Virus record (IMG/VR): IMGVR_UViG_2667527633_000005
Strand: one strand, 5' to 3'
Source of the DNA: a virus
Taxonomy: Duplodnaviria > Heunggongvirae > Uroviricota > Caudoviricetes
DNA: 19,664 nucleotides
Under the pieces are notes generated by a model that was given only the letters and a program-made list of their open reading frames with translations, was not told the DNA's origin and searched no databases. How positions within the stretch are numbered: the first letter of the stretch is position 1; every line of letters starts with the position of its first letter. Shown here piece by piece: positions 1 through 14,716 of this stretch. The translations under genes were made by a program, and so were the position numbers.

Positions 1-177
1 CTACCNNNNNNNNNNTACTTTTGCGCCTCCCAGCCGGACCGGCGCTGCGGCGTAATACGCGGCAATTTCACCAATCCAGCCGGTCAGCCTTTCCCGCTGC
101 TCCTGACTGTTCGCGCCCAGAATAAAATCCATCGCTGACTGCGTATCCAGCTCACTCTCAATGGTGGCGGCATACAT
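1..177 (-). CDS. hypothetical protein, 5' portion only (runs off window start; N-run 6..15 inside)
   Basis: Minus-strand frame opening with ATG at 177..175 (MYAATIESELDTQSAMDFILGANSQEQRERLTGWIGEIAAYYAAAPVRLGG...). Absent from the ORF track because there is no stop in the window. No family recognised. Confidence 0.3.
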   Translation of the reverse strand: MYAATIESELDTQSAMDFILGANSQEQRERLTGWIGEIAAYYAAAPVRLGGAKVXXXX

Positions 178-257
178 CGCCTTTATGAAAAGACAGGAAA
201 AAATAAAATTTAAAAACAGTACATTACGAATGCTCAGACCTATCGTTTAAAGGAGTC

Positions 258-279
258 GCAATACACACTGCAATACACG
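258..279. repeat. left copy of 21-bp direct repeat gcaatacacaCtgcaatacac (two tandem GCAATACAC half-sites); candidate att/arm-type site at left island end
   Basis: Matches 10950..10970 (gcaatacacaTtgcaatacac) at 20 of 21 positions; a further GCAATACACA copy lies at 10920..10929 beside the integrase start. Confidence 0.45.
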
Positions 280-312
280 ATTATTTATAAGATGAGCGGC
301 ATCCGTCATAAA

Positions 313-551
313 GCTGGTGGATGCTTTTTCTATGCATATATGCACAGTTTTAGTGGGCGTTAATGTCGATATAGGGATCCCCATATCGAGATTGGATACC
401 TGGCTTTTTTCCGGTTAACCTTTAATCAGGCTGGTGGGCTTTACCTGTTTTGTATGAGTGGTCATCATGACCATGTCATAACAAAAACCCCATATTCGTG
501 GTTTTTCTGTGTCGGGCTATTCTGTCGTTGCTGTGCTGATTTGGCTGGTGG
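313..551 (+). other. cluster of three Chi octamers 5'-GCTGGTGG-3' in one orientation (313..320, 430..437, 544..551)
   Basis: Exact octamers read directly from the sequence within 240 bp of non-coding DNA; palindromes GTCGATATAGGGATCCCCATATCGA (367..392) and GGTCATCATGACC (461..473) lie between them. Confidence 0.75.
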
Positions 552-617
552 GCTGAATCATCATTACGGCGATGCAGCTATGTAGACGTTCCGGCCTCCT
601 CAAATTGAGGATTGTGG

Positions 618-778
618 AAGAATCAATGGGTTAGTCTTACTTTCCCGACATCCCCCAATGGGGGTTTTCGAAACAATCAATAGCTTAGGCTTACTTCCCC
701 GATTTCCTGCATTGCAGGTTTTCGAAATAATCAATGGGTTAGGCCATCGTGCAATTTTGCACTTTGCCAGCCAGCGCA
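618..778 (+). repeat. tandem ~55-bp repeat array (about 2.5 units), each unit with ATCAATGGGTTAG..CTTACTTCCCGA plus a short GC-rich hairpin followed by TTTTCGAAA
   Basis: Units begin near 622, 678 and 731. Hairpins: CCCCCaatGGGGG (about 652..668), CCTGCattGCAGG (706..718), GTGCAAttTTGCAC (759..772). A second repeat family GCCAGCGCAAT..CGCGTTATC occurs near 768..795 and 955..984. Confidence 0.6.
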
Positions 779-992
779 ATGTCGCGTTATCAGTCCTCAG
801 ATGTGAGGGATGTAGCCAGCTTTTCCCCCAGTGGGGGATATCCAGCACCGACGGCTTAACTGTGCGTGCCAGCACAAGGTAGCCTTGAACTACTTACTGC
901 ATCCCATCTTACAGGCCGTGCCTTCCTGCTTAACTTTTTGCAATGCAACAAGTCAGCCAGCGCAATTTTGCGTTATCGGGAATATCAGCAAG

Positions 993-1274
993 TTACCGCC
1001 GCAATCGTTCCGGCTTCTTCCACTGGTAAGTATTTTTCGCGCTCTCCCTCCGTTGTTGAGAACGGCGACGATATGCCAGCAACTCAAGGACTCTTGTTCG
1101 TATGTTGCGCATATCCACGCCGTTAAGCTCAATACCGTCACGGCGCATCACCTCAGCCACTACACGCACATAATTATCTGCGGTCACGCTGTCCGGCTGC
1201 GTGGCCTGTTCGTCATGCTGCTTGCTGATTCCACAAGCACGGCGGATTAATCGCAGTATTTCGGATTCAGTCAT
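993..1274 (-). CDS. hypothetical small protein (93 aa) with arginine-rich C-terminus
   Basis: ORF with ATG at 1274, directly downstream of the terS-like gene on the same strand; C-terminus RRRSQQRRESAK..KKPERLRR suggests nucleic-acid binding. Weak RBS, no family recognised. Confidence 0.4.
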   Translation of the reverse strand: MTESEILRLIRRACGISKQHDEQATQPDSVTADNYVRVVAEVMRRDGIELNGVDMRNIRTRVLELLAYRRRSQQRRESAKNTYQWKKPERLRR

Positions 1275-1356
1275 AGCGTACTACGTTACTTATCTTTATT
1301 CGGCTGCAACTTATCCGGTACGTTTCCGGCAGTTTCCATCAGATAATCGGACAGCA

Positions 1357-1827
1357 TCAGCGGTATGTTTTCGTCAAGTTTTGCGCATGCGTTACAGGCT
1401 CTGATAACTTCTTTTTCAGTCCATCCAGCATAGACGGCTTCATGTCGGGAAACTTCCTTGTCATGGCAAGCGGCAGGCTGTCCATGATTGAAGAAATCTG
1501 ACTCGCCAATTTTGAAAGCACGTATATACAAAACGCTGTATCAATAACGTCGCCGCGTTCGCGCTCGTTTTTAAGCTCCTGCGCCTCTGCCTGTGCTGTC
1601 AGCAATCTGATCCTGACTCGTAGGAGTTCATCATCATCAATCTCGCCTTTGTCGTCTGTAATCTGGTTAATTGCATTGCTAACCCGATTGTCTATTACGC
1701 TGGCAACATCATAAAACGCCTCGCGGCCTTTACGTTCAACGGGAGTCACTCCCCACTTGTCGAACGCTGTCGCACTTACACGGCAGCTTTGCGCCATGTT
1801 TTTTTTGTTCATCAGGTGCGATTTCAT
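1357..1827 (-). CDS. terminase small subunit, phage lambda Nu1-like
   Basis: LLTAQAEAQELKNERERGDVIDTAFCIYVLSKLASQISSIMDSLPLAMTRKFPDM aligns with lambda Nu1 (..RLTRAQADAQELKNARDSAEVVETAFCTFVLSRIAGEIASILDGLPLSVQRRFPEL) as I recall it. Start placed at ATG 1827 (GGGGA RBS 5 nt upstream); the track ORF begins at GTG 1839. Lies about 135 bp downstream of cosN, as in lambda. Confidence 0.85.
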   Translation of the reverse strand: MKSHLMNKKNMAQSCRVSATAFDKWGVTPVERKGREAFYDVASVIDNRVSNAINQITDDKGEIDDDELLRVRIRLLTAQAEAQELKNERERGDVIDTAFCIYVLSKLASQISSIMDSLPLAMTRKFPDMKPSMLDGLKKKLSEPVTHAQNLTKTYR

Positions 1828-1939
1828 CAATATCCCCACTTAAGTAATGTTTCAGGTTGGTGTATTGGCTTTATCTTTTCCTTTTTATTCATAGAGATAG
1901 AGCGAACAACAAAACCACCACCAGCACCCGAAAAAGGCT

Positions 1940-1990
1940 CATAAATAGCGAAAACCCGCGAGGTCGCCGCCCCGTAGCCTACCGGATCGC
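1940..1990 (-). other. lambda-type cohesive-end site (cosN core = reverse complement of 1961..1972, GGGCGGCGACCT, plus conserved flank)
   Basis: Minus strand reads ..ACG GGGCGGCGACCT CGCGGGTTTTCGCTATTTATGAg.., matching the lambda left-end/cosN sequence from memory; positioned immediately upstream of the Nu1-like gene. Confidence 0.8.
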
Positions 1991-2028
1991 CGGAAAGGAC
2001 CCGCCAGCCAGAACGGGCCCTAATTTCA

Positions 2029-2412
2029 TCAACCAATCAACTTATAGCGACCATCCCGTGCATTGCGACGTACACGCTCAATCTTGAGGCATAGCGCCGC
2101 ATCTGGCTTTTTTGGGACAGGTACGCGGCAATATTCAGAAGATCGAGGAATATTGTTTATCCAGTCGATCACTTCACTTAAATACCAGGCCTTACGCCCT
2201 TCCGTAACCTGCACACGCTCCGGGAACTCTCCACTAGCCTCAAGGTTTAGCAATGTGCGACGGCTAAGGGTAGTAAGTTCCATCACCTGATTCATATCAA
2301 CAAGGCGTTCACTTAAACGCATTTTGTCAGCAATAGCCTTTAATTCCTCTACTGCTGGATCCGGATACATCATTTCGGCAATTGGCTTAAGGTCATTGTA
2401 ATGATTCTGCAT
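2029..2412 (-). CDS. AlpA/excisionase-like HTH regulator (127 aa)
   Basis: Central segment MELTTLSRRTLLNLEASGEFPERVQVTEGRKAWYLSEVIDWI resembles the AlpA/Xis-type winged HTH; GGGGGA RBS 4 nt before ATG 2412; sits between the decoration gene and cos. Confidence 0.55.
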   Translation of the reverse strand: MQNHYNDLKPIAEMMYPDPAVEELKAIADKMRLSERLVDMNQVMELTTLSRRTLLNLEASGEFPERVQVTEGRKAWYLSEVIDWINNIPRSSEYCRVPVPKKPDAALCLKIERVRRNARDGRYKLIG

Positions 2413-2423
2413 TGTATCCCCCT

Positions 2424-2765
2424 TTACACACGAGCCAGCGGCTGAACAGAAATACCTGAGCCAACAAACGCGGCAACCTTTGCCGACAGTTCTTTTACAG
2501 ACTCAGGCCAGTTCAGAGCATCAACATTTAAAACACCTGTCTTATAAACCTGTGCCTGTGTTTTTTTCGCTGTGTCGATTTGTACAGCGGAAACATAAAC
2601 CGCTTTACCTACGCTCGAACCATCCCATACCACCAGTGCACCTGTTGCATCTTCCTGCATCAGTGGCGTAAATGCAGGAATTACCCCTTTATTAGCTGAA
2701 AATATCCCCAGCGTAGTCACCAGTGCTTCAGTGCCAGCCATGAGTTCAGTGTAATGAGTAGCCAT
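2424..2765 (-). CDS. head decoration protein, phage lambda gpD-like
   Basis: TPLMQEDATGALVVWDG..VYKTGVLNVDALNWPE..AAFVGSGISVQ parallels lambda gpD (TPLMLDTSSRKLVAWDG..FYKSGTFRYEDVLWPEA..TAFAGTAISIV, from memory); GGGGGAG RBS overlaps the stop of the upstream capsid gene. Confidence 0.8.
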   Translation of the reverse strand: MATHYTELMAGTEALVTTLGIFSANKGVIPAFTPLMQEDATGALVVWDGSSVGKAVYVSAVQIDTAKKTQAQVYKTGVLNVDALNWPESVKELSAKVAAFVGSGISVQPLARV

Positions 2766-2774
2766 TGCTCCCCC

Positions 2775-3815
2775 TTAGCCAATGCGAACGGTAACAAAAC
2801 GATTGATGCGGGCCGGTATTGGCTGTGGTGCTGAATGTGTCTGCACATATTCAATAGCCGGATCACCAGGCACAATATAGTTTTTCGGTGCAAGTTCGGC
2901 TTTAGTCAGCCCCATTCGGATTAGCTCCGGATCCTGAATACCGCCATAGGCGACAATCCCCTGAAGAGCCGTATTGCCAAGCACCATCAAATCAGGATCA
3001 AGGAAATGTTTTTCTGTTCCGTCCTCGTCGGTATAACGCCCGCTGTAAACAACAATCGCAACATCGCCCATATACCCTTTAAAACTCACCGAATCACCAA
3101 GGTCTTTAAGGGCCGTTTCCAGTTCGGAATTAGAACCACGACGGGTATCCAAAGCCTCTTTTATCGCTCTGAATGAACGGTATTTCTTCCATACATTACC
3201 ACCCATAATGATGATATTAGTGACGCCCTCACTAAATTCTGCGTAGCTCTCAATATCATCATTTGGATCAAAAGTTTCTTTATCCTTACCTGACCACTCA
3301 GTACCGCCAGACTGAGTGATGATATTTTGTGGTTTTATATTCCAGTCCAGCTCATAACGTTCAATACCATCGCCCTCAATGATATTTTTCCCCGTTGTGA
3401 TTGCCTGAACAGCAAGCCATTCAATACGTGCACGAATAGCTTTAGCCTGATTTACAATCGCCTGTTTAACTTTAATATTACGTGCCCCAAAAGCATTGTA
3501 TTGCTCAGGTGATACACCAGCAGGGCGCACAGCTAACTTATTTGGATCAATGCTGCTTTTCGGCTTCATATAGCCTGGACGAATTGTTTTTGATTCGTAC
3601 CCTTCGTCACGTGAAACTTTACTACCCACCATAGGAGAACAAAACGCTGCAATTGGGATATTTGGATCGTCGATTGTATCAAGAATAATATCGCGCGATT
3701 CAAACATTACCGAGCGAGTAAAAAACAAACTGGTAAACAACGCATTTAGTTGTTTTTGTACATCTACAGCATTAACCACCTGTACAAGCTGAGTAGGCGA
3801 ATATAAATCAACCAT
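2775..3815 (-). CDS. major capsid protein, phage lambda gpE-like
   Basis: Long collinear match to lambda gpE, e.g. NIITQSGGTEWSGKDKETFDPNDDIESYA..YRSFRAIKEALDTRRGSNSELETALKDLG..YMGDVAIVVYSG..MVLGNT. Start set at ATG 3815 (AAGAGG 6 nt upstream; aligns with the gpE N-terminus); the track ORF extends to 4028, but a stable hairpin at 3990..4020 argues against that extension. Confidence 0.85.
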   Translation of the reverse strand: MVDLYSPTQLVQVVNAVDVQKQLNALFTSLFFTRSVMFESRDIILDTIDDPNIPIAAFCSPMVGSKVSRDEGYESKTIRPGYMKPKSSIDPNKLAVRPAGVSPEQYNAFGARNIKVKQAIVNQAKAIRARIEWLAVQAITTGKNIIEGDGIERYELDWNIKPQNIITQSGGTEWSGKDKETFDPNDDIESYAEFSEGVTNIIIMGGNVWKKYRSFRAIKEALDTRRGSNSELETALKDLGDSVSFKGYMGDVAIVVYSGRYTDEDGTEKHFLDPDLMVLGNTALQGIVAYGGIQDPELIRMGLTKAELAPKNYIVPGDPAIEYVQTHSAPQPIPARINRFVTVRIG

Positions 3816-3989
3816 ACGCATCCTCTTTGCATTCATTAAAAATAATTGTGGATATATGCTACCACCGATATTTGTCATGCGAACACATGCAACCGAGTGC
3901 AATGTTGTATAAAGTTTTGGGGTGACAACTTCAGTGCGGACAATTAGTGTTAATATCTTCACTCCCTTTGGTCGGGATTTATGTAGCAT

Positions 3990-4020
3990 GCCGGAAAATT
4001 TATTTTTTCCGGCCTTTTTT
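3990..4020 (+). terminator. intrinsic-terminator-like hairpin (GCCGGAAAA-tttatt-TTTTCCGGC followed by a T-run), plus-strand orientation
   Basis: Perfect 9-bp stem 3990..3998/4005..4013 with T6 at 4015..4020, in the gap between the SSB-like stop (4032) and the capsid gene; on the minus strand it is a hairpin without a U-tract. Confidence 0.4.
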
Positions 4021-4031
4021 ATTGGCAATAT

Positions 4032-4481
4032 TTAAAACGGGATATCATCTCCCCATTGCTCATTATCTCCCACTGGTGGCTGGCTTCCTTGCTGATCTGC
4101 CTGTTGTTTTGCTCTGTTCAGTTCGTCAGTAGCCTGCCCCTGTTGGCCTTTTTTGCCGCCCGGTCGCGCCGTTCGCGCACTGATTACGCTGTCTGCGATA
4201 ACCTGCCAGCCCCGCCGCGTTTCGCCGTTCTGGCCTGTCCACTGGCTTACCTGCATGTTACCCGCCACGCTCACCAGTTCGCCTTTGTGGTGTTTTGCCA
4301 GTGCGTCGGCCTGTCTGCCAAACGCCAGGACGGATAACCACATCGTCGCCGTTCCGTCATCTGCCTGGCTGCACGGCAGGGGAACCGCCATACTCGCCAT
4401 CGCCATTTGTGTCCCTTTGCTGGTGGTCTTTAACTGCGGGTCAGCCACCAGCCGCCCGTAAGCCGCTATCTGTGCTGTCAT
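4032..4481 (-). CDS. single-stranded DNA-binding protein-like (C-terminal acidic DDIPF tail)
   Basis: Ends ..NEQWGDDIPF, the hallmark SSB C-terminal tail, preceded by a Gly/Gln-rich linker and an N-terminal domain compatible with an OB fold; overlaps the upstream ORF by 4 bp. Confidence 0.65.
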   Translation of the reverse strand: MTAQIAAYGRLVADPQLKTTSKGTQMAMASMAVPLPCSQADDGTATMWLSVLAFGRQADALAKHHKGELVSVAGNMQVSQWTGQNGETRRGWQVIADSVISARTARPGGKKGQQGQATDELNRAKQQADQQGSQPPVGDNEQWGDDIPF

Positions 4482-4792
4482 GCTGTCTGCTCTCCGGTTT
4501 TAACATTGATGGTTGTCACCTGTTCCGCTTCGGCAATCTCCCGTTCTGTCAGCGTGGCAAAGTTTGCCGCTGCTGTGGTCATGAATGCGCTTATCAGGTC
4601 GGGATGTTCCTTCGCGTATCCTGCCCGTGTGTGGTGGTCTATCGCTTTGATTGCCACCTTTAAGGAAAGCTCTGTCATGTCTAACGCTTTATATTTTGCC
4701 TGTGTTCTGTCTCTGCGAATTTTGGTCATTTGTCGCCCCTGATTCATGTTTTCGGCTGGCATGTTTATTAAGTGATTTTTATGTATGCGCAT
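4478..4792 (-). CDS. hypothetical protein (104 aa; start uncertain, several in-frame ATGs)
   Basis: ORF immediately downstream of the iteron origin and translationally coupled to the SSB-like gene; no family recognised. Confidence 0.45.
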   Translation of the reverse strand: MRIHKNHLINMPAENMNQGRQMTKIRRDRTQAKYKALDMTELSLKVAIKAIDHHTRAGYAKEHPDLISAFMTTAAANFATLTEREIAEAEQVTTINVKTGEQTA

Positions 4793-4843
4793 TTATTTTC
4801 ACCCCCCCCTCGTTTAAAAAGTTTTTAGTTGTGCCTCCCCCCC

Positions 4844-5061
4844 TCTACCCATCTACCCGAATGCTCATCATGTCAGTAATGGCGCGGCTTTCAGCGGGTA
4901 GATAGCTTTTTGACTCCTCTACCTGCCGTCTACCCTGCTACCTGAAACTGATAAAATCAGGTAGAAGAGGTAGAGAGCTTTTATTAGCCTTCTACCTAGC
5001 CCTATACCCACTTATCATGTTGAATAATATGCGTTTATTTTGTTCAGGTAGATGGGGTAGA
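4844..5061. repeat. iteron array (TCTACC forward, GGTAGA inverted; at least 10 copies) with adjacent AT-rich DNA: putative replication origin of the island
   Basis: TCTACC at 4844, 4852, 4918, 4929, 4991; GGTAGA at 4897, 4960, 4969, 5047, 5056 (pairs spaced 8-11 bp); AT-rich stretches at 5018..5045 and 5066..5090; immediately 3' of the primase/helicase gene. Confidence 0.6.
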
Positions 5062-5077
5062 TGGCTTTTACAAAAAA

Positions 5078-6832
5078 TTATAAAAACGCGTCGCAATCGT
5101 CTGTTGTAATTGCGTTGGTCTGCGTTACTCCCTTAACTTTTCGCGTAATATATTCATGCCCGTAAACTTTCGCCGCTGGCTTCATGGCCTTGCTGAACTC
5201 AGCCACGTTTAGCGGTTTGCTCCTGCCCGCGTATGCCATAAACGCCAGATAGACGCGGTAAAGGCTGTTCCTGGTCGTGTACTTCACTGAATCACCACCG
5301 CCACCCATCATCAGGCCGCGCGCTTCCTCCAGAAAATTCAGGAACTGGCAAAACTCAATAACCGGATCCGTCTGTTGCTTTATTGCCAGTGCTTCATCAC
5401 CGTCACGCTGTTCCAGTAGTAAAGCCCGTGCCTTCTCAGGGTCGGTAAAGTTCGCCAGCAATCGGCGGATAATAACGGGGATTTCAGCCGCAATCTTTTC
5501 CGGTAGCTCCCTGTCTTTTTCGGCCTCACTGACGATATTGTCGAAACGGAAAATCACGCGACGACGTGCCACACCTCCGGCCCGTTCGGTGAATATCATC
5601 GGGTTGTTGTTGGTCGCCAGCACCACCGCCCTGATTACCGCCGTGAAACGCTTTTCATATTTCGGGTTAATTTCCACGGGGTCGCCGCCTGTGATTTTCT
5701 TGATGCCCGTTCCTTCGCCTGTATATTTCGGCTGGTCAGCCAGGACGATAAGACGACTCCCGACAACCTGCGCACGTCCACCAGCATCATCAAGCGATGT
5801 CATTTCAGCGCTTACCGTGTTCTGTTTCCCTGCCAGAAGGCTGGCTATGTGTGTGAATGTACTTTTACCGCTCCCGCCGTCTCCGGTGGCCTCAATAAAC
5901 ATCTGCCAGTCGTACCGGTTCGCCATAATCATGTACAGCGCGGCACATATACGCATCATCTTGCGCGGGTCTTTTCCGGCTGCGTGCTCAAGCCATTTAT
6001 GAAAGTTTGGCGCGTTATCGCGGATGTTCTCCCCTGGTGCTGGTGGCGTGTACTCAATGCCGTTGTGCGTGGTGATCCAGTTCTCCGGCGTGTGCGGGGA
6101 AAATTCCCCCGTTTTCAGGTCAAGCGCACCATTGGCGAACGGCAGCAAATCGCCAGACGGCTCGCCCATTGGTTCGGCAATAACTTTTAACGCTTCCACG
6201 GCGTTATTGATTACGCGCTTGCTGAAAGTGGCCCTGTGCTCTGAATAGATCGCCACCATTTCGCGGCTAAGTTCCATTGTGCTGACCGGACACCATACCC
6301 CGCCGCGCCATACGTGAACGATTTCACTTTCAGGATGTACGCAAACGCCATCAAAGCGATCGGCAAGCAACTGCGCGCGCTCACTGTCCGCCATCTGCGA
6401 AAGTTGCGCCTTTTGCTTTACCGGAAGCTCAATGACCAGACCATCAGAAAGATTCTGGCGTTCACGGGCCAGATATTCGCGCCAGTTCTGCACCTCCTGG
6501 CCGTGCATACCCTCAGGATAAAAATTTGCATCCTGTACGCCTGCTGCCGCCAGCTTCTGACCAATCGCCTTTATCATTACAGGCGCAAGATATCCGGCCC
6601 TGTATATGCGTGCTGATTTTCGGCCTTCCGGCACAATTTGCAGATTATCCAGTTCGGATAGCTGCTGCTCCCCAAGCCACACAGGAGGCTCATTATCTCC
6701 GGCCATACGCGCATCATGTTCCTGCCATTGTTTCGCGTGTGCCCAGGCATCACTACCCGCAAAAATAATGACTTCTGTTCCTTTGTGTTTTATGCCGCGT
6801 GACTGCTGTTTTACGTTCGGTGCCAGTTTCAT
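5078..6832 (-). CDS. P4-family primase/helicase (Pri-Rep-like replication initiator)
   Basis: 584-aa ORF with Walker A IEATGDGGSGKSTFTHIASLLAGK and a C-terminal region typical of phage/plasmid P4-type primase (D5_N/SF3 helicase-like); the position (small ORFs, pri, then iteron ori) matches satellite replication modules. Confidence 0.9.
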   Translation of the reverse strand: MKLAPNVKQQSRGIKHKGTEVIIFAGSDAWAHAKQWQEHDARMAGDNEPPVWLGEQQLSELDNLQIVPEGRKSARIYRAGYLAPVMIKAIGQKLAAAGVQDANFYPEGMHGQEVQNWREYLARERQNLSDGLVIELPVKQKAQLSQMADSERAQLLADRFDGVCVHPESEIVHVWRGGVWCPVSTMELSREMVAIYSEHRATFSKRVINNAVEALKVIAEPMGEPSGDLLPFANGALDLKTGEFSPHTPENWITTHNGIEYTPPAPGENIRDNAPNFHKWLEHAAGKDPRKMMRICAALYMIMANRYDWQMFIEATGDGGSGKSTFTHIASLLAGKQNTVSAEMTSLDDAGGRAQVVGSRLIVLADQPKYTGEGTGIKKITGGDPVEINPKYEKRFTAVIRAVVLATNNNPMIFTERAGGVARRRVIFRFDNIVSEAEKDRELPEKIAAEIPVIIRRLLANFTDPEKARALLLEQRDGDEALAIKQQTDPVIEFCQFLNFLEEARGLMMGGGGDSVKYTTRNSLYRVYLAFMAYAGRSKPLNVAEFSKAMKPAAKVYGHEYITRKVKGVTQTNAITTDDCDAFL

Positions 6833-7128
6833 TTTTTACCTCTGAATCCGTTAATCATGGTTTTCATTTTCTGGATATTTCCCCACGCTTTTTCCCTGCT
6901 GATGGGCTTACTGCGGGGTGCGGCATATACCAGGGGAAAATCACGCCGGAACTGATAAACAGGCATCACGCAGTCATAGCTATACCCCTCACGGCGGTAA
7001 GTGATGCGCCGTTCTGCCACGCCTTTAATCGTTACCGTGCCGCCGTATTTATCGCGGTAAATATCGCCGTTCATAAATTCAGGTCGAGCGGGGCCGCTGG
7101 CAATAAAGCCAGAATTTTTCATTTCCAT
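6829..7128 (-). CDS. hypothetical protein (99 aa)
   Basis: ORF overlapping the primase start by 4 bp (coupled); no family recognised. Confidence 0.5.
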   Translation of the reverse strand: MEMKNSGFIASGPARPEFMNGDIYRDKYGGTVTIKGVAERRITYRREGYSYDCVMPVYQFRRDFPLVYAAPRSKPISREKAWGNIQKMKTMINGFRGKK

Positions 7129-7145
7129 ATTATTTATTCCTCGAC

Positions 7146-7367
7146 TTAACTCGACTTATTTGATAGCAGGGCACTATTTATTGCGTCATTGAGTTTTTCT
7201 GCTGATTCATCAATAAGTGACAACAGGCCATAAGCAATATTTGCATCTTCATTGTCATTTATGCAATCAAGCCACATATTTAATATTGCTTTTGCTGAAT
7301 TATTTAAAGTTAATGAACTTTCTGCACATGCTAACAATTTAAAAAAGACTTCCCGTTCTGTATTCAT
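7146..7367 (-). CDS. hypothetical protein (73 aa), encoded in a visibly AT-rich segment
   Basis: ORF in the same operon string; local base composition is much more AT-rich than the flanking genes. Confidence 0.4.
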   Translation of the reverse strand: MNTEREVFFKLLACAESSLTLNNSAKAILNMWLDCINDNEDANIAYGLLSLIDESAEKLNDAINSALLSNKSS

Positions 7368-7559
7368 TTAATCCCCCACCAGCTTACTTTCTTCCTCAAT
7401 CAAAAAACTAGCGACACTTCCCGAAAGACGCGCCAGTAGGCTCGCCAGTGCGGATATATCAGCATCTGTAATTTTGTTCGGGTATACCTCAAGAAGGCGG
7501 CAAATAATTTCTGTCTGGTGCGCACGTTCAGCGGCTTCGTGTAATGTAATTTCCTGCAT
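7368..7559 (-). CDS. hypothetical protein (63 aa)
   Basis: ORF abutting its neighbours with no gap (7367/7368; shares nt 7559 with the upstream ORF). Confidence 0.4.
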   Translation of the reverse strand: MQEITLHEAAERAHQTEIICRLLEVYPNKITDADISALASLLARLSGSVASFLIEEESKLVGD

Positions 7560-7744
7560 TAATGCACCTCTTTTAATTCATACACTGCTGAAATAATGAC
7601 TTGTGATAAGCCATATTCTGATGATTCGCTTCTCACCGCAGCAATAGCCGTCTGAACATTAACAGCCTTCACATTCTGAGCGATACCAATTGTGTGGCCT
7701 ATTGGGTTAACAGCTCGGGCAAATACACGGAAGGTTTTAAGCAT
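7559..7744 (-). CDS. hypothetical protein (61 aa), first gene of the leftward operon
   Basis: ATG at 7744 preceded by GGGAG (6-nt spacer); lies immediately downstream of the divergent control region. Confidence 0.45.
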   Translation of the reverse strand: MLKTFRVFARAVNPIGHTIGIAQNVKAVNVQTAIAAVRSESSEYGLSQVIISAVYELKEVH

Positions 7745-8025
7745 GACTCACTCCCTGGCGGATTTTTGCAGCGAATACAGCAACACAACCGGACGGGCAA
7801 CGGCTACGCGCTTCGCGTTCCGTCCAGGCGGTTACGTGGATGATTTGAGATTCTCCGGCACTCAGTGCCAGAAAACGCCACACAAAGGCCGTTTGTGTGT
7901 GTACAAGGTGTGGTATATGATTTACAGCAACCATAACGGCTCCTAGTTTACGTTGTTGGTTAGACGCCCCGTATGTGTTCCCAGCACTGCGGGGCGTTGC
8001 TCTTTGTATTTCAACAATCCTTTCG

Positions 8026-8103
8026 GTGTGTTTCATGTTATGAGCGCATGAAACACACGTCAAGGCTTTTTGTATTTCTTTTTTTGTGTATACTGAAACA
8101 CAC
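8026..8103. promoter_or_regulatory. operator-like sites in the divergent control region: GTGTGTTTCATG-N9-CATGAAACACAC (8026..8058) plus a third TGAAACACAC (8094..8103) overlapping a TATACT -10-like hexamer (8089..8094)
   Basis: Perfect 12-bp inverted repeat read directly; located 20-100 bp upstream of the RHH gene start (8125, AGGAG RBS) and within the 380-bp gap separating the two divergent transcription units. Confidence 0.5.
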
Positions 8104-8124
8104 CGATGATTAGGAGTTTCAGAA

Positions 8125-8430
8125 ATGGCAACGGCTAACAAAAACGCAAAATCACAACTGACAACTGTCAGAGTCCCACTAGATGTTATGCAAGGGATGG
8201 AATCCGTTAAGCTGGACGGTGAAAGCAATGCCGGATTTATCGTAACCGCCATGCGCGGAGAAATAGCCCGCCGCCAAGCAGAAGGCAGCGGAGAAAATCC
8301 CCTTGTGTCGTCACTGGATGCCCTGGCTAAGGTCGAACAAATCGGCATCAAAGCAGCCGAGGAGATCGGGCAACTCGTCACCGTCGCGCGTGAAGAACTC
8401 CAGCGACGCAAGGTCAAAGAGCATGAATAG
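8125..8430 (+). CDS. ribbon-helix-helix (CopG/Arc-like) DNA-binding protein; candidate island repressor
   Basis: N-terminal LTTVRVPLDVMQGMESVKLDGESNAGFIVTAMRGEI has the strand-helix-helix pattern of RHH regulators; strong AGGAG RBS; transcribed opposite to the main island operon. Confidence 0.55.
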   Translation: MATANKNAKSQLTTVRVPLDVMQGMESVKLDGESNAGFIVTAMRGEIARRQAEGSGENPLVSSLDALAKVEQIGIKAAEEIGQLVTVAREELQRRKVKEHE

Positions 8431-8487
8431 CCAATATCAGCGCCATAGTTTGAGGAACGCAGGCGCATTGCTTTACAGGACAGCACC

Positions 8488-8667
8488 ATGAGCGACACAG
8501 AATCAACCAAAACACCATCACCAACTCGTAAGAGACGACGCAAAAATATAGCGCATGAACATGAATCAGAAAGATTCGCACCTTGTTCGTTTGCTCTTGA
8601 GAAATTCCTTAAAGAGCACAGGAAAAAGCTCTCGTTGCAAACCTTGGAACGAACCAAATCTGACTGA
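8488..8667 (+). CDS. hypothetical small basic protein (59 aa)
   Basis: ATG 8488 to TGA 8665..8667 (MSDTESTKTPSPTRKRRRKNIAHEHESERF...), below the ORF-track length cut-off; follows the RHH gene and precedes a strong terminator. Confidence 0.4.
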   Translation: MSDTESTKTPSPTRKRRRKNIAHEHESERFAPCSFALEKFLKEHRKKLSLQTLERTKSD

Positions 8668-8733
8668 TCACATTGCCCACCAGCCGCAAATGTGGCATTG
8701 TTGGTGATGCTTTTGTTTTCCCTTGTTCCCACT

Positions 8734-8765
8734 GGCGACCCTTTTGCGGTCGCCTTTGTTTTGTC
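8734..8765 (+). terminator. rho-independent terminator (GGCGACC-cttttgc-GGTCGCC followed by TTTGTTTTGTC)
   Basis: 7-bp GC-rich stem with T-rich tail, read directly; placed between the convergent plus-strand pair and the Bro-N gene. Confidence 0.6.
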
Positions 8766-9342
8766 ACTGAATGCGGTTACCAAAGTAAAACTCAGGCTGA
8801 TATTCACGTATCAGCGTTTTTTCTTCTTCCTCCAGCTCACGCTTTTTGCGCTTACATGCCTGTAGCTCCCTCCCCTTCTCGCTGGCACTTATTTGATATT
8901 GCTCTTTACGGCGGGAAAAATCCTGTAATGCACCCCACGGGATACCATAAGTCCCCGTTTTTCTGATACCTGGTATCACATTTCTGAATACCCAGTTACT
9001 GAAACGATGAGCAAATGTGCCAGGCGTCGTTGCTTTGCGGCTGCGGGCTATTAGTTTGTAGAAACCTGACTCAGAGATAATTCTCATATTCTGATTTCCT
9101 CCTGGGGTGTAAGTTAAATTTACTCCCTTTTCATCATCATCAAGCATCTGCAACGCCGTACGCGAATTGGTTAGTTCCAGCGCAGCACAAACATCTTTTG
9201 CAACAAACCACGGATCGCCGTTCAGATACACCACACGAACGTTCACACTATCAAAGCGCAGAACGACGAGATCACGAATATCGCAGAATTTTTTCACTGG
9301 ACGAGCGTACCCCTTGCCCGTCACGGCAATATTTTTATTCAT
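8764..9342 (-). CDS. Bro-N domain protein (phage antirepressor-like) with coiled-coil C-terminus
   Basis: N-terminal region (..NGDPWFVAKDVCAALELTNSRTALQMLDDDEK..) is typical of Bro-N/AntA DNA-binding domains; C-terminus is charged and heptad-like (RELQACKRKKRELEEEEKTLIREY). Confidence 0.75.
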   Translation of the reverse strand: MNKNIAVTGKGYARPVKKFCDIRDLVVLRFDSVNVRVVYLNGDPWFVAKDVCAALELTNSRTALQMLDDDEKGVNLTYTPGGNQNMRIISESGFYKLIARSRKATTPGTFAHRFSNWVFRNVIPGIRKTGTYGIPWGALQDFSRRKEQYQISASEKGRELQACKRKKRELEEEEKTLIREYQPEFYFGNRIQ

Positions 9343-9362
9343 CGCGTTTTTACCTTATAGAC

Positions 9363-9385
9363 AAAAAACCCCTCGTGATGAGGGG
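9363..9385 (-). terminator. rho-independent terminator on minus strand (CCCCTC-gtgat-GAGGGG; U-tract from the A6 run 9363..9368)
   Basis: Hairpin 9369..9385 directly downstream of the alpA stop (9399), followed on the minus strand by six U. Confidence 0.5.
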
Positions 9386-9398
9386 CATTATTTACTGG

Positions 9399-9656
9399 TT
9401 ATTGCTGTTTTGTTTTTCCAGGTTTCCATCCAGGATGCCACTCACCACGGATCCATGCCTGAACCTCTGAAAGTCGATACCCTGCAGCACGTTCACCGAT
9501 CTTGATACGTCGCGGGAATTTACCTGCCTGCTCCATTTTCCAGCGTGTTGAGTTTGCCAGCGTGGTAAGTGCTATGCACTCTTTTTCACGAATGAACCGA
9601 TCAATGTCCTTCATTGTGCGCAAATCGTTTTCATCAACAAGAGAATAAATTGCCAT
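9399..9656 (-). CDS. alpA: AlpA-family transcriptional regulator / excisionase-like protein
   Basis: 85 aa; ..CIALTTLANSTRWKMEQAGKFPRRIKIGERAAGYRLSEVQAWI is typical of AlpA (prophage CP4-57 regulator family); start is 2 bp after the integrase stop. Confidence 0.85.
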   Translation of the reverse strand: MAIYSLVDENDLRTMKDIDRFIREKECIALTTLANSTRWKMEQAGKFPRRIKIGERAAGYRLSEVQAWIRGEWHPGWKPGKTKQQ

Positions 9657-9657
9657 A

Positions 9658-10899
9658 TCACACCACCTCTTTATTAAGCTCGATAACGTTGTTGTTAAAT
9701 CCTGCTATCGTATTAAGGTAATTAACCCACATATTAAGCACCTCAAGTTTTTTCTTTATATGCCTGCTTTTATTGTAAACACCAGCAACCCCTTTCACTT
9801 TATGACCTAAAAGAAGTTCGACAATATAAGGATCCGCCCCCATATCATTAAGCGTAGTGGAAAATGTGCGCCTGAAATCATGTATGCACCACAAGCCATT
9901 AGTATCATGACCAAGACGCCTGCATATTCTGTTTGCAGCCCCTGTTATTGTCGCCCTTTGCAAAGCACAACCGACAACATAACCGCGATTTTTTGTTTCT
10001 GCGTAAAGATTAACGATCCATTGTTTTATTCCGTCAGGAACAGGCCTTACTATAGCCTCCTTGTTTTTGCTGTGCTCTTTTGGGACTGTCCATACCCAGT
10101 TTTTTAAATCCCATTCGTCCCAGGTGGATAGCCTCGCCTCCTGCTGTCGGCAACCAAACACCAGGCAGATAACCATTATTCTTCGGTTATATATTGATGA
10201 CAGAGTTAGCAAATTATTACCGTAAGCATAAGACCATACATCAGCGGTTTCATTGATATTAAGAACGCGATCCCTTATACCGGATGAGCGCCCGACATAA
10301 CTTACGTTAATATCTCCAAAGGGATCGCACGCGATGTATTGCCTGACGCGACAAAAACGCAACGCCTGTTTGATATCAAGAAAAATTGCACCAGACATAA
10401 CAGGCGCATTTTTTTTGATCCTGTCAAAGACGGTAAGCCATGTGTGTAATTTGCACTGTTCTATAGCCATATCACCGATATAGGGGAAGATATGCTTTTC
10501 AAATCGTTTTATTAAATATTCATGCTCTTTTCTGGCTGTTGTGGCGTGATTGTCGTACCAGTAAAACAGCGCATCCCTTACGGTCACTGGTTGCATAGTT
10601 TTTTCGGCAGCAAGTTTTATTTGCCTGCGGGGGTCCAGATTTTCAGCCAGCCATTCACGGCACTGATCACGCATGCGCCTGGCCGTTGCAAGAGACATGT
10701 CAGGATAGCGACCAAGTGTAAGCCATACCGGAGGGGATTCCCTGCCACCAAGACGATAGTAAAAAACAAAGCTGATCCCCCCAACCATGCTTACACGCAC
10801 AGACAACCCGCGCCCATCCGCTATTGTTTTTTGTTTGTCCTGCCGTTTTCCGACAAGACTCTTTAACAGTTTGTCACTGAGTTTGTTTTCAATAGCCAT
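9658..10899 (-). CDS. int: tyrosine site-specific integrase, P4-type
   Basis: 413 aa; N-terminal arm-binding-like region (LSDKLLKSLVGKRQDKQKTIADGRGLSVRV..FYYRLGG); C-terminal catalytic motifs HDFRRT..LLGH..GVY; GAGGG RBS 7 nt before ATG 10899. Confidence 0.95.
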   Translation of the reverse strand: MAIENKLSDKLLKSLVGKRQDKQKTIADGRGLSVRVSMVGGISFVFYYRLGGRESPPVWLTLGRYPDMSLATARRMRDQCREWLAENLDPRRQIKLAAEKTMQPVTVRDALFYWYDNHATTARKEHEYLIKRFEKHIFPYIGDMAIEQCKLHTWLTVFDRIKKNAPVMSGAIFLDIKQALRFCRVRQYIACDPFGDINVSYVGRSSGIRDRVLNINETADVWSYAYGNNLLTLSSIYNRRIMVICLVFGCRQQEARLSTWDEWDLKNWVWTVPKEHSKNKEAIVRPVPDGIKQWIVNLYAETKNRGYVVGCALQRATITGAANRICRRLGHDTNGLWCIHDFRRTFSTTLNDMGADPYIVELLLGHKVKGVAGVYNKSRHIKKKLEVLNMWVNYLNTIAGFNNNVIELNKEVV

Positions 10900-10919
10900 T
10901 AAAAGCCCTCAAGAGATTT

Positions 10920-10970
10920 GCAATACACACCCATCCCGATCGCCAATTTGCAATACACATTGCAATACAC
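10920..10970. repeat. right copies of the GCAATACACA repeat (10920..10929; 21-mer gcaatacacaTtgcaatacac at 10950..10970); candidate attR/arm-type or AlpA/Int operator sites
   Basis: Direct repeat of 258..278 (20/21 identical); located in the integrase promoter region. Confidence 0.45.
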
Positions 10971-11174
10971 AAAACCGCGAAAAACTGGAAGGGTGATGAA
11001 CGGTCATCAAAAGCATGGAAAACGACATTCCAGACGCAGCAAGGGTTTCAGTGGAGTTGGCGAACGATGCGGGCAACTACGGTGAGATGATAGACATAAA
11101 TCGCCTTCACAATGGCGCTCTGCAGCTGCGTGTTCTGCAGCGTGTCGAGCATCTTCATCTGCTNNNNNNNNNNT

Positions 11175-11468
11175 GCCGGTTTTAAGGGGTTAATTTCTTC
11201 AAAAGTCAAATCTCGCCCGCAATGCTGTGACGATGACGCGATGATCATTTGTGGATGTATGGCTCGCCTGAAAAAAAACAACAGCGATTTGCATGATTTA
11301 TTGGTGGACTATTATGTCGGCGGCATGACTTTTATGGCGCTTGCACGTAAGCATGGGCGATCTGATTGTTGGGTTGGCAGGATGCTCCAGAAAGCTGAGG
11401 GCGTAGTGGAGGGCATGCTGATGGTGTTGGATCTCCGATTGGAGATGGATGCTGATTGTTCGAAATAA
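11175..11468 (+). CDS. phage antitermination protein Q-like, C-terminal portion (N-terminus lies across the N-run 11164..11173)
   Basis: ..[68 protein letters not shown]..: Cys cluster plus a sigma-region-4-like HTH, resembling small lambdoid Q proteins (DLP12 QuuD type, from memory). Context supports this: a terminator about 100 bp downstream and a lysis cassette further on. The track ORF's MALCSC.. N-terminus across the Ns is probably not real. Confidence 0.4.
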
Positions 11469-11566
11469 TTAAAAGAAAAGTTGCTGTCTGATTGTCATTA
11501 GTCTAACATTTTAAATGTTGGAATCGCAACGTAGTTATTATCATATAACAGCTTGTTTCCTGATTT

Positions 11567-11598
11567 AGCCAGCCTCCCCAAAGGCTGGTTTTTTTTCT
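11567..11598 (+). terminator. rho-independent terminator (CCAGCC-tccccaaa-GGCTGG + T8), tR'-like position downstream of the Q-like gene
   Basis: Hairpin 11569..11588 and T-run 11589..11598 read directly; a possible -35/-10 (TTGTCA ..TTAAAT) lies near 11495..11525. Confidence 0.55.
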
Positions 11599-11624
11599 AA
11601 TAAGTATCATTTCGGGTAGGGATT

Positions 11625-12149
11625 TTATTGTTTAACCCATAATAATTCATTGACATTGAATCCCAGCTTTTGAGCGGTTCGCACATAGTCTGCTTTTACT
11701 TTATCTGGAATAGTTGGGGTCCTTGCCAGAATCCATAGGTATTCTCTGTTCGGACCACTGACAAGAGCATACTTATACTCATCATCCAGTTTGATTACAT
11801 TATAGCCACCATAGAAGGGGCCAAAAAACGAAACCTTCAACGCTGCAGTTTTAGTATCTCCAGTAAAGTATGCTTTACCTTCGCTCTCGCTCCATTTATT
11901 TTTCGTTGGATCGTATCCACGGTTAAGTACACGAATCCCTCCGTCGTTCCGTTTTCCATAAGTAGCGCTGACCTGTTCCAGACCACGTTCGAACCGGTTC
12001 TCGAGGCGAGCTATTTCATACCATTTTCCGAGATAGCGGTTGGCGTCAAAATTTGTAATCGGCTGCACACCTTTAGGTGGTGTCGGGGCCTTACATGCTA
12101 TAAGAGTGAAAGAGAGTGCAATGCCAGTCAACACAGGCCATAACTTCAT
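11625..12149 (-). CDS. blc: outer-membrane lipoprotein lipocalin Blc
   Basis: Lipoprotein signal ..LTGIALSFTLIACKAP then NFDANRYLGKWYEIARLENRFERGLEQVSATY..GKAYFTGDTKTAALKVSFFGPFYGGYNVIKLD..YLWILARTPT, clearly Blc-like but only moderately similar to E. coli K-12 Blc; start set at ATG 12149 (AGGA RBS) rather than the track's 12209. Confidence 0.85.
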   Translation of the reverse strand: MKLWPVLTGIALSFTLIACKAPTPPKGVQPITNFDANRYLGKWYEIARLENRFERGLEQVSATYGKRNDGGIRVLNRGYDPTKNKWSESEGKAYFTGDTKTAALKVSFFGPFYGGYNVIKLDDEYKYALVSGPNREYLWILARTPTIPDKVKADYVRTAQKLGFNVNELLWVKQ

Positions 12150-12341
12150 AATAAATCCTGTACTTTTGATAGTTGAGGGTAAGTATGAAAGATAGATGAT
12201 TACGACCAATCACTTAAAGAACTTTTATACTATATTAGGAATAGTCCATAACAGAAAAATTGTCAGTGATGACGCCAGAAAGGCAATTTATTCCGTGCAC
12301 TACACAGTTTATCTGTTAATGAATTAGTCAAGGGGGAGGAT

Positions 12342-13301: not shown

Positions 13302-13780
13302 CTGTATGCGATATCATCTGAAAGTGATGAGTTCCTGCATGCAGGATATTTACAATCGTAAAAACTACACTATGATACCCATAGTGTCAGTTTGTATAAA
13401 AATCCTGTTCACGCTGAAGAAAATATTGAGATGCAATTTAATGTTGGTAAATATACCAGCCCCAAAATATTTTATTCAATCTGTTTTTATATAAAGATAT
13501 TTCAAGCGAATATTAAGAGCATATAATATTATTATTGCACGCAGCTATTATAATATAACAGATTAGTTTAATGATTTTTTGCGAGTTAAACACATGCTTT
13601 TATAGTTGTGATGCAATGAGATTTTCCTTATTGTTGAACTGGCGAATATTGATTACCCACCTATACTTACCTGGTGTAACCCCAATGATATCAGGTGGAT
13701 AATATGCCATACATATGTTCTATGGTGATGCCTCTAATTAGTTGAGTCTGATGTATAATACGGGCTTTTGAGGTTATCTC

Positions 13781-14606: not shown

Positions 14607-14684
14607 AAAAACACATGATGTAACGTGATGCGTTTTAATGATTTTGTAATTTTCGTATTTGATAATTTTATGATGCTTTCAGCT

Positions 14685-14716
14685 ACGCCAGAATAATCGC
14701 TGGCGTTTTTCTTTTT
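14685..14716 (+). terminator. rho-independent terminator (ACGCCAG-aataatcg-CTGGCGT + T-run)
   Basis: 7-bp stem 14685..14691/14700..14706 followed by TTTTTCTTTTT; downstream of the AraC remnant. Confidence 0.6.

What the first reader, a model, noticed from the sequence alone, without database searches (positions are those of the whole stretch)
313..551. Three Chi sites (GCTGGTGG) in the same orientation within 240 bp near the island end
Seen: exact Chi octamers at 313..320, 430..437 and 544..551, with further plus-strand copies at 4419..4426 and 6039..6046 and three minus-strand copies (1918..1925, 5778..5785, 8677..8684), i.e. about 8 per 10.7 kb. Established: Chi attenuates RecBCD nuclease approaching from its 3' side and is rare or absent in lambda. 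Inference: a RecBCD entering the linear, cos-cut island at the terS-side end would travel leftward and meet this triplet in the active orientation after about 1.4 kb; this could protect injected satellite DNA or promote RecA-dependent rescue.
Basis: partly seen in the sequence, partly recalled or inferred. Interest (0 to 1): 0.6.

Follow-up and report, generated by a model that had tools for sequence, protein, structure and literature searches.

The report
Chi-site cluster in a phage satellite
An 11-kb phage satellite of E. coli carries three correctly spelled RecBCD "Chi" signals side by side in a non-coding spacer near its end, as part of a several-fold Chi enrichment shared by related satellites, which suggests these elements rely on the host's own DNA-repair enzyme rather than blocking it.

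Summary
Exact GCTGGTGG lies at 313, 430 and 544 on the + strand.

Bases 184-11107 are a 10.9-kb PICI-type satellite. It splits the portal gene of a lambda-like prophage and has a lambda-identical cosN at 1961-1972.

The island holds 10 Chi (0.9/kb). The host has 0.20/kb, the flanking prophage none and satellite P4 none. Chi is the commonest octamer in the island and in 44 dereplicated relatives.

The triplet lies in the non-coding spacer between the packaging genes and att. The middle site sits in a conserved ~100-bp block present in 964 of 5,426 E. coli genomes. That block is always in the same orientation, across at least three satellite families.

In 27 dereplicated islands this spacer holds 32 Chi facing cos and 8 facing away. 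All 24 one-mismatch variants together give only 5.

No Gam, Red or RecT-like gene was found.

Best reading: these are selected RecBCD control sites, as in Rec-less lambdoid phages and P1. However, the cluster is placed and oriented for RecBCD coming from the terS-side cos end, the opposite of the phage pattern. The function is inferred, not shown.

The parts
313..320 (+). Chi-A, exact GCTGGTGG, inside a hairpin GCATCC...GGATGC followed by TTTTT
   Evidence: The context (C/T)ATCCGTCATAAA-Chi-ATG recurs in several islands with different downstream sequence. Its 3' flank CTTT/TTTT is a disfavoured context for nicking.
430..437 (+). Chi-B, exact GCTGGTGG, within the invariant AATCAGGCTGGTGG
   Evidence: Invariant in all roughly 14 distinct variants of the block.
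544..551 (+). Chi-C, exact GCTGGTGG
   Evidence: Present in a subset of islands. The upstream context differs between window-type and L124-type islands, yet GC+TGGTGG is kept. In a Salmonella island a different Chi lies 9 nt away in the homologous stretch.
355..445 (.). Conserved non-coding block: palindrome 367-388, hairpin 398-415, TAA-N5-AATCAG-Chi-NN-TTTAC
   Evidence: Alignment; 34 copies; found in 964 of 5,426 E. coli genomes. In the annotated loci it lies about 200 bp inside att at the end distal to int.
176..183 (.). Left copy of the proposed att core ATCGCCTT (junction with the C-terminal part of the portal gene)
   Evidence: The 8-bp repeat was found by reading the two junctions; it is shorter than the 9-nt cut-off of the repeat scan.
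11100..11107 (.). Right copy of the proposed att core ATCGCCTT (junction with the N-terminal part of the portal gene)
   Evidence: Same basis as the left copy.
591..752 (+). Three tandem 54-nt units, each a hairpin with a covarying stem plus a conserved tail; they lie between the Chi cluster and the last gene
993..1274 (-). Conserved 93-aa gene of unknown function (phrog_1561), always next to the Chi-bearing spacer
1286..1827 (-). Small terminase with a Nu1 C-terminal domain; in this window it is frameshifted by a 1-nt deletion near 1412
1918..1925 (-). Chi 36 bp inside the terS-side end. It is a lineage-specific variant of a GGTGGTGGTGG motif and is in the wrong orientation for RecBCD entering at that end.
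1961..1972 (-). cosN, identical to the lambda cohesive end; 1928-2004 is 91% identical to lambdoid cos regions
4419..4426 (+). Chi inside the SSB gene, antisense to it; half of a back-to-back pair
   Evidence: The pair is conserved across relatives.
4445..4452 (-). Chi inside the SSB gene, on the sense strand. It is the first site met by RecBCD entering at the other (right) cos end, about 2.5 kb in.
5778..5785 (-). Chi in the primase gene, sense strand
6039..6046 (+). Chi in the primase gene, antisense strand
7376..7383 (-). Chi in a small gene of unknown function, sense strand
8677..8684 (-). Intergenic Chi between the YlcI-like and BRO-N genes
4830..5075 (.). Probable replication origin: about 12 (G/A)GGTAGA iterons and an AT-rich stretch just downstream of the primase gene
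9658..10899 (-). Tyrosine integrase, at the other end of the island

Best explanation
The three octamers are working Chi sites kept by selection. They belong to a Chi-rich design shared by E. coli and Salmonella PICI satellites, which carry no recognisable recombinase or RecBCD inhibitor.

How it would work:
- The cluster lies in the non-coding spacer between the packaging genes and att.
- It faces cos, so it acts on RecBCD travelling in the direction cos -> terS -> att. That means RecBCD entering at the terS-side cohesive end, or running along a concatemer tail in the direction of packaging.
- Within 1.4-1.65 kb such an enzyme would meet three chances to be switched from degradation to RecA loading.
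- This would spare the att-int-regulation-replication part of the island. It would also give a RecA-coated 3' end that can invade another copy.
- The outcome would be circles, multimers or recombination-primed rolling-circle replication. A lambda-type cos system needs such forms for packaging.
- Five further sites on the other strand would serve RecBCD entering from the opposite end.

Shown: the sites, their enrichment, their exactness, their conservation, their orientation, and the lack of a recognisable Rec module.

Inferred: that RecBCD reads them in vivo, at which stage of the life cycle, and what the benefit is.
For: Enrichment:
- 11 Chi in the window against 0.6 expected.
- 10 in the 10.9-kb island against 0.20/kb in the host; no host window exceeds 7.
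- No Chi in about 12 kb of flanking lambda-like prophage.

Exact octamer favoured:
- Chi is the commonest octamer in the island (10, next 7). In 44 dereplicated relatives it has 406 copies; the next, with 195, overlaps it by 7 nt. Terminal one-mismatch variants have 15-29 copies.
- Observed/expected under a trinucleotide model is 406/26 for the satellites and 40/17 for the host.
- The sites occur in 198 distinct 28-nt contexts with no extended consensus.

The spacer itself:
- In 27 dereplicated islands (18.8 kb of spacer) there are 32 Chi facing cos and 8 facing away.
- All 24 one-mismatch neighbours together give 5.
- Chi is the octamer found in the most segments, 22 of 27.
- At least five different sequence contexts carry it.
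- A Salmonella island lacks the block but has three cos-facing Chi in this spacer.

Gene content: no Gam, Red, RecT, Erf or Abc hit in PHROGs or Pfam.

Precedent: Rec-less lambdoid phages and P1 are Chi-rich, with Chi as their top octamer, and use RecBCD.

Contrast: P4 has no Chi in 11.6 kb. From my own knowledge, P4 is packaged by the P2 terminase from monomeric circles.
Against: - There is no functional data.
- The orientation bias in the spacer comes mostly from Chi-B, which sits in a block whose neighbouring bases are just as invariant. Outside the block the counts are 14 against 8.
- The 3' flanks of Chi-A (CTTT, with TTTT from nt 5) and Chi-B (TTTA) are poor contexts for nicking at Chi.
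- In lambda, terminase holds the terS-side end and RecBCD enters from the other end. Chi-rich lambdoid phages cluster their sites at that other end. So it is unclear when the terS-side end is exposed.
- Helpers that make Gam would silence RecBCD in the donor cell.
- The island as a whole has no strand bias (5:5).
- The relatives are not phylogenetically independent, and IMG/VR contig ends may include some host DNA.
Confidence: 0.5

Rival explanations
1. The conserved block is a cis-acting site for something else: a DNA-bending or excision protein such as IHF or an AlpA-type factor, or a structured DNA or RNA element. The middle Chi is conserved only because it lies inside that site. The two outer sites are passengers in a mosaic non-coding module.
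For: - AATCAG, TTTAC, the hairpin 398-415 and the palindrome 367-388 are as invariant as the octamer.
- AATCAG-GCTG-GTG resembles the IHF consensus WATCAR-N4-TTR, preceded by a T-tract (my reading of the sequence, not tested).
- In the annotated loci the block keeps a roughly fixed distance of about 200 bp from att.
- The 3' flanks are not optimal for Chi nicking.
- Without the block Chi, the orientation bias is only 14:8.
Against: - The four 'free' positions of an IHF-type site (GCTG) are also invariant.
- Chi recurs in the same spacer in at least five unrelated contexts, and in a Salmonella island that lacks the block.
- Exact Chi outnumbers all one-mismatch neighbours 32 to 5.
- The whole island family is Chi-rich far from the block.
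- The palindrome varies without compensation, and no Rfam family, promoter or terminator fits.
Confidence: 0.2
2. The cluster protects the linear, cos-ended island just after injection into a new cell, before the ends join, by stopping RecBCD that loads on the terS-side end.
For: - The geometry fits: 1.41 kb from that end, in the active orientation.
- The opposite end has its first correctly oriented site 2.5 kb in.
- A recipient without a helper has active RecBCD, and the satellite has no inhibitor.
Against: - Lambda has identical cohesive ends and no Chi. From my own knowledge, it plates equally on recBCD+ cells.
- Also from my own knowledge, the terS-side end is packaged first and so enters last, when the ends can anneal at once.
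- A fragment trimmed of cos and terS cannot circularise by its cohesive ends and would need a homologous partner.
Confidence: 0.15
3. The sites mark the island as 'self'. They shorten RecBCD degradation tracks and thereby limit RecBCD-dependent spacer capture by CRISPR or other end-sensing defences. They do not promote recombination.
For: - It uses the same recognition step, so it is compatible with the enrichment and the exactness of the octamer.
- The link between RecBCD products and CRISPR adaptation is noted in a review.
Against: It does not explain the fixed position and orientation next to att, or the contrast with P4. Nothing here bears on it directly.
Confidence: 0.08
4. There is no selection. 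The Chi sites come from chance, from host-like composition gained during long residence in the chromosome, or from captured host DNA.
For: - Zheng et al. 2025 argue, without measuring it, that cryptic prophages should accumulate Chi as the rest of the chromosome does.
- A same-strand triplet within 404 bp exists in only 200 kb of host DNA.
Against: - Density is 4-5 times that of the host, and about 10 times in the non-coding spacer, where codon usage cannot act.
- Observed/expected is about 15 under a trinucleotide model, against 2.3 for the host.
- One-mismatch variants are rare.
- The adjacent prophage has none.
- The spacer has no match to host genes; its matches are to other islands.
Confidence: 0.04

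Closest known systems
Rec-module-less, Chi-rich lambdoid phages (LLS class; Zheng et al. 2025, PMC12315714; Bobay et al. 2013, PMC3784561)
   Same: No recombinase or RecBCD inhibitor. Chi is far above host density and is the commonest octamer. Lambda-type cos, so concatemers are needed. Chi is clustered towards one genome end.
   Different: This is an 11-kb satellite, not a phage. Density is higher (0.9/kb against 0.54/kb). There is no overall strand bias (5:5 against 20:3). The cluster lies near the terS (left) end and faces RecBCD entering there; LLS clusters its sites at the right end, facing the other way. One site sits in a conserved non-coding block.
Phage P1 (50 Chi in 94.8 kb; needs RecA and RecBCD to cyclise; as summarised in PMC12315714)
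   Same: A mobile element that uses host RecBCD and Chi on injected or replicating linear DNA. Chi is its commonest octamer.
   Different: P1 is a headful-packaging phage with terminal redundancy. The satellite has cohesive ends and could circularise without recombination.
[quoted passage not shown]
   Same: A properly oriented Chi rescues growth or concatemer accumulation when RecBCD is not inhibited. The effect depends on orientation relative to cos or to the rolling direction.
   Different: Those are laboratory constructs with single sites. Here there is a natural, conserved, triple cluster.
cos-type E. coli PICIs such as EcCICFT073 (Fillol-Salom et al. 2019, PMC6739421)
   Same: Integrase, AlpA, primase-replicase with ori, lambda-like cosQ/cosN with an island-specific cosB, and redirection of the helper terminase.
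   Different: This island has its own Nu1-like TerS, major capsid and decoration genes rather than Rpp. The paper mentions neither RecBCD nor gam (zero occurrences), and no paper in the library links Chi to PICIs.
Satellite P4
   Same: An 11-kb satellite with a primase-helicase, an integrase and cohesive ends. It has a repeat-rich cis region next to att (crr).
   Different: P4 has no Chi at all. From my own knowledge, it is packaged from monomeric circles by the P2 terminase.

Membership tests
Chi site of enterobacterial RecBCD | Exact octamer 5'-GCTGGTGG-3' | tested here: met
Chi site of enterobacterial RecBCD | Resides in a host whose RecBCD reads this octamer | tested here: met
   The island and its relatives are found in E. 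coli, and one in Salmonella. That these enzymes read GCTGGTGG is established knowledge.
Chi site of enterobacterial RecBCD | Oriented so that RecBCD from an available double-strand end approaches from the 3' side | tested here: inconclusive
   The orientation is correct for the terS-side cos end. Whether that end is ever free is unknown; in lambda it is the terminase-bound end.
Chi site of enterobacterial RecBCD | Favourable 3' flank (A or G at nt 4-7) | tested here: not met
   Chi-A has CTTT, Chi-B has TTTA, and only Chi-C (GAAT) is fair. This is a modifier of activity, not a requirement.
Chi site of enterobacterial RecBCD | RecBCD- and RecA-dependent hotspot or protective activity | not testable with these tools
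   This needs genetics or biochemistry.
Chi-rich, Rec-less lambdoid phage class (LLS class) | No recombination module and no RecBCD inhibitor | tested here: met
   No such hit in PHROGs or Pfam. Several small proteins of unknown function remain; the 93-aa one has no fold match.
Chi-rich, Rec-less lambdoid phage class (LLS class) | Chi density above the host's, and Chi the commonest octamer | tested here: met
Chi-rich, Rec-less lambdoid phage class (LLS class) | Strong bias to the strand active for RecBCD entering the right end, with clustering at that end | tested here: not met
   The island has 5:5. The cluster is near the left (terS) end on the other strand.
Chi-rich, Rec-less lambdoid phage class (LLS class) | Is an autonomous lambdoid phage | tested here: not met
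   It is 10.9 kb with no tail, lysis, portal or large-terminase genes.
Phage-inducible chromosomal island (PICI) | Integrase, AlpA-type regulator, primase-replicase with an adjacent iteron ori, a packaging module with cos/terS, a size of about 10-15 kb, and no lysis or tail genes | tested here: met
Phage-inducible chromosomal island (PICI) | Induced and packaged by a helper phage | not testable with these tools
   Only indirect hints: a lambda-identical cosN, a Nu1 C-terminal domain in TerS, and insertion in a lambda-like prophage.

The most novel reading that the evidence does not exclude
PICI satellites carry a dedicated, conserved 'RecBCD gate': a non-coding Chi cluster anchored in a ~100-bp block next to att. 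It is oriented for RecBCD running from the terS-side cos end or along a concatemer tail. It would turn the host nuclease into the satellite's recombinase and replication primer. This polarity is opposite to that of Chi-rich helper-type phages, so it could let satellites multiply and be packaged when the helper does not, or cannot, inhibit RecBCD.
Probability: 0.3. Interest if true: 0.7.

Novelty: new variant of a known kind. Interest (0 to 1): 0.55.

Why it matters
Satellites are usually described as stealing helper-phage proteins. A several-fold, octamer-exact Chi enrichment would show that they also depend on a host repair enzyme.

It extends the rule "no recombination module means many Chi sites" from phages to their parasites.

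It offers a simple handle, three point mutations, to test whether RecBCD helps or hinders the spread of islands that carry virulence and defence genes.

The reversed polarity of the cluster raises a direct question: which DNA end of a satellite is exposed in the cell?

Tried and rejected
- A scan of viral contigs for three Chi at this spacing gave at least 120 hits. Most were unrelated and many were low in GC, with many copies on one strand; only one hit was this island. The pattern is not specific.
- A scan of species-representative genomes for the block, leaving Chi out of the pattern, gave one chance match. The exact block is nearly confined to E. coli.
- Rfam found nothing at gathering or permissive thresholds.
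- The promoter and terminator scan found only a terminator-like hairpin around Chi-A.
- Small ORFs in the spacer, including a 125-aa one annotated in L124, are not conserved in frame. I treated the spacer as non-coding.
- An extended Chi motif (GGCTGGTGGGC) suggested by two copies did not hold over 198 contexts.
- I rejected the idea that the spacer is the replication origin, with the cluster guarding the start of a rolling-circle tail. A typical iteron origin lies next to the primase gene.
- A search for distant homologues of the 93-aa neighbour returned only relatives of 82% identity or more. Its model has no fold match and is not Gam-like.
- DNA folding of 290-600 was not exceptional, z = -1.8.

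Full report
**1. Observation**

GCTGGTGG occurs exactly at 313-320, 430-437 and 544-551 on the + strand. The window holds 11 copies, against 0.60 expected from dinucleotide-preserving shuffles (largest 4).

The window is composite. Runs of N at 6-15 and 11164-11173 separate pieces. Only 16-11163 is contiguous with the finding.

**2. What the region is**

Bases 16-11163 match E. coli chromosomes at 99-99.9% identity. In annotated genomes this stretch is a roughly 10.9-kb element that splits the portal gene of a lambda/DLP12-like prophage.

An 8-bp ATCGCCTT copy at each junction (176-183 and 11100-11107) is my proposed att core. It is shorter than the 9-nt cut-off of the repeat scan, so it comes from reading the two junction sequences.

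Gene content, all on the - strand except one:
- integrase, an AlpA-type regulator, BRO-N, and an Icd-like protein
- several small proteins of unknown function, and DUF4222
- a D5/P4-alpha-like primase
- SSB
- a lambda-E-like major capsid protein and a decoration protein
- a second AlpA-like protein
- a small terminase whose C-terminal half is the Nu1 domain
- a 93-aa protein of unknown function

An iteron-rich, AT-rich origin lies just downstream of the primase gene.

The lambda cohesive-end sequence GGGCGGCGACCT is at 1961-1972 on the - strand, and 1928-2004 is 91% identical to lambdoid cos regions. Homology stops where an island-specific cosB would begin.

This is a cos-type phage-inducible chromosomal island (PICI).

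**3. Where the triplet sits**

The stretch 184-992 has no annotated gene, no conserved ORF, no Rfam match and no convincing promoter. It holds three features:
- the three Chi sites;
- three tandem 54-nt hairpin units at 591-752;
- a conserved block around the middle Chi.

Read in the direction of transcription and packaging, the order is: cos - terS - 93-aa gene - hairpin units - Chi-C - Chi-B - Chi-A - att - int.

A + strand Chi is read by RecBCD moving towards lower coordinates. That is from the terS-side cos end towards att, and the first site is 1.41 kb in.

**4. Is it more than chance or host background?**

| Sequence | Chi density or count | Source |
|---|---|---|
| Island (10.9 kb) | 10 Chi, 0.92/kb | |
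| Host, 200 kb from a strain with the near-identical island | 0.20/kb | |
| Host, maximum in 316 island-sized windows | 7 | |
| E. coli K-12, published | 1,008 in 4.6 Mb | |
| About 12 kb of flanking prophage | 0 | |
| Satellite P4 (11.6 kb) | 0 | |

Poisson P(>=10) at the host rate is about 1e-4.

Chi is the commonest octamer in the island (10 copies, next 7). In 44 dereplicated relatives from IMG/VR it has 406 copies. The next octamer has 195 and overlaps Chi by 7 nt, and terminal one-mismatch variants have 15-29 copies.

Against a trinucleotide Markov model, observed/expected is 406/26 for the satellites and 40/17 for the host.

Five of the ten island sites lie in the roughly 22% of the island that is non-coding.

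**5. Conservation**

The middle Chi lies in a block of this form: palindrome CGATATGGGGATCCCCATATCG, a short hairpin (ACCTGGC-T6-CCGGT, or the variant ACCGGAA-T5-TTCCGGT), then TAA-N5-AATCAGGCTGGTGG-NN-TTTAC.

- The block occurs in 964 of 5,426 complete E. coli genomes, at up to five places per genome.
- In every annotated locus examined it lies about 200 bp inside att, at the end distal to int and downstream of the 93-aa gene.
- Those loci cover at least three satellite families. They include capsid-forming islands of the HK97/HNH type and islands at four other insertion sites.
- I searched for the block with a pattern that left Chi out. Every true copy had AATCAGGCTGGTGG.

Chi-A and Chi-C are present only in subsets.

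In the 700 bp downstream of the 93-aa gene in 27 dereplicated islands (18.8 kb):
- there are 32 Chi facing cos and 8 facing away (binomial p = 2e-4, not corrected for relatedness);
- the 24 one-mismatch neighbours together occur 5 times on that strand;
- Chi is the octamer present in the most segments, 22 of 27.

The cos-facing sites occur in at least five sequence contexts.

A Salmonella island lacks the block but has three cos-facing Chi in this spacer. One of them lies 9 nt from the position of Chi-C, within otherwise homologous sequence.

Across all sites there is no extended consensus beyond the octamer.

**6. Cautions**

- Eighteen of the 32 cos-facing sites are the block site. Without them the bias is 14:8.
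- Bases flanking Chi-B are as invariant as Chi itself, so a second constraint is likely.
- The 3' flanks of Chi-A and Chi-B are poor for nicking at Chi by the criteria of Taylor et al. 2016.
- The site at 1918, 36 bp from cosN, is a lineage-specific variant of a GGTGGTGGTGG motif.

**7. Mechanism**

No Gam, Red, RecT, Erf or Abc homologue was found. The 93-aa protein gives an all-helical model with no fold match.

Zheng et al. 2025 showed three things about lambdoid phages without a recombination module. They are Chi-rich. Chi is their commonest octamer, as in P1. The one phage they tested, LLS, grows better with RecBCD, and they predict the same for the other 71 such genomes. They propose that Chi-stimulated recombination makes the concatemers needed for packaging.

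The satellite fits this rule and exceeds those densities. P4 has no Chi; from my own knowledge it is packaged from monomeric circles.

I therefore take the sites to be selected RecBCD control sites.

The difference is polarity. In those phages the sites cluster at the right end and face RecBCD entering there, because terminase holds the left end. In the satellite the non-coding cluster is near the left (terS) end and faces RecBCD entering at that end. The five sites on the other strand are dispersed in the right 60% of the packaged genome, apart from the one next to cos.

RecBCD could run in that direction from any of these:
- a released left end;
- the free end of a rolling-circle tail that rolls in the direction of transcription;
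- the injected molecule before it circularises.

The last case is the least needed, since lambda with the same ends has no Chi.

The 3' end left at the cluster points back towards terS and cos. If it invaded another copy it would first re-copy the degraded part and could go on as a rolling circle. These steps are inference.

**8. Literature**

Full-text searches combining Chi or RecBCD with PICI, satellite or pathogenicity island found only general reviews. The main paper on cos PICI packaging has no occurrence of RecBCD or gam among the terms I searched.

**9. Verdict**

This is a new variant of a known kind. It is of moderate interest and directly testable.

Noticed in passing
window 6-15 and 11164-11173: Runs of ten N. 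The window is stitched from separate pieces, so 11174-19664 (lambda Q / Blc-like region) need not be next to the island.
   Followed up: partly
window 1-183 and 11100-11163; L001, L234: The satellite is inserted in the portal gene of a lambda/DLP12-like prophage, in the same orientation as the prophage late operon. The prophage's portal gene is split while the island is in place.
   Followed up: partly
window about 1412 (terS, 1286-1827, - strand): A one-base deletion in a T-run, relative to 99%-identical islands, frameshifts the small terminase. It may be a sequencing error or a real defect.
   Followed up: partly
window 591-752 (and 768-791, 954-977): Tandem 54-nt units, each a hairpin whose stem changes with compensation (CCTCAAATTGAGG, CCCCCAATGGGGG, CCTGCATTGCAGG ...), followed by TTTCGAAAnnATCAAyGGGTTAGGC. 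There are 22 distinct units in eight islands. Function unknown.
   Followed up: partly
window 4830-5075: About twelve (G/A)GGTAGA iterons in both orientations, plus an AT-rich stretch, just downstream of the primase gene. This is the likely origin of replication.
   Followed up: partly
L201, L132, L174, L166 and ten other loci: Many related islands carry a second, inverted copy of the cosN sequence 740-870 bp downstream of cos. This recalls the cos1/cos2 pair of EcCICFT073. The window's island has only one.
   Followed up: no
window 4419-4452: A back-to-back pair of Chi sites 26 bp apart at the 5' end of the SSB gene, about 400 bp from the origin. It is conserved across most relatives.
   Followed up: no
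window 993-1274 (- strand): A 93-aa basic, all-helical protein (phrog_1561) always adjoins the Chi-bearing spacer in all satellite families seen. It has no Pfam, PDB sequence or fold match.
   Followed up: partly
L021, L026, L029, L094, L120 (viral contigs): Unrelated viral contigs with 20-25 copies of GCTGGTGG on one strand within about 10 kb, some at low GC. They may be coding repeats or other Chi-rich phages.
   Followed up: no
L235 (phage P4, NC_001609): P4 has no Chi site in 11.6 kb. Its repeat-rich crr region lies next to attP, a position like that of the hairpin-repeat spacer here.
   Followed up: partly
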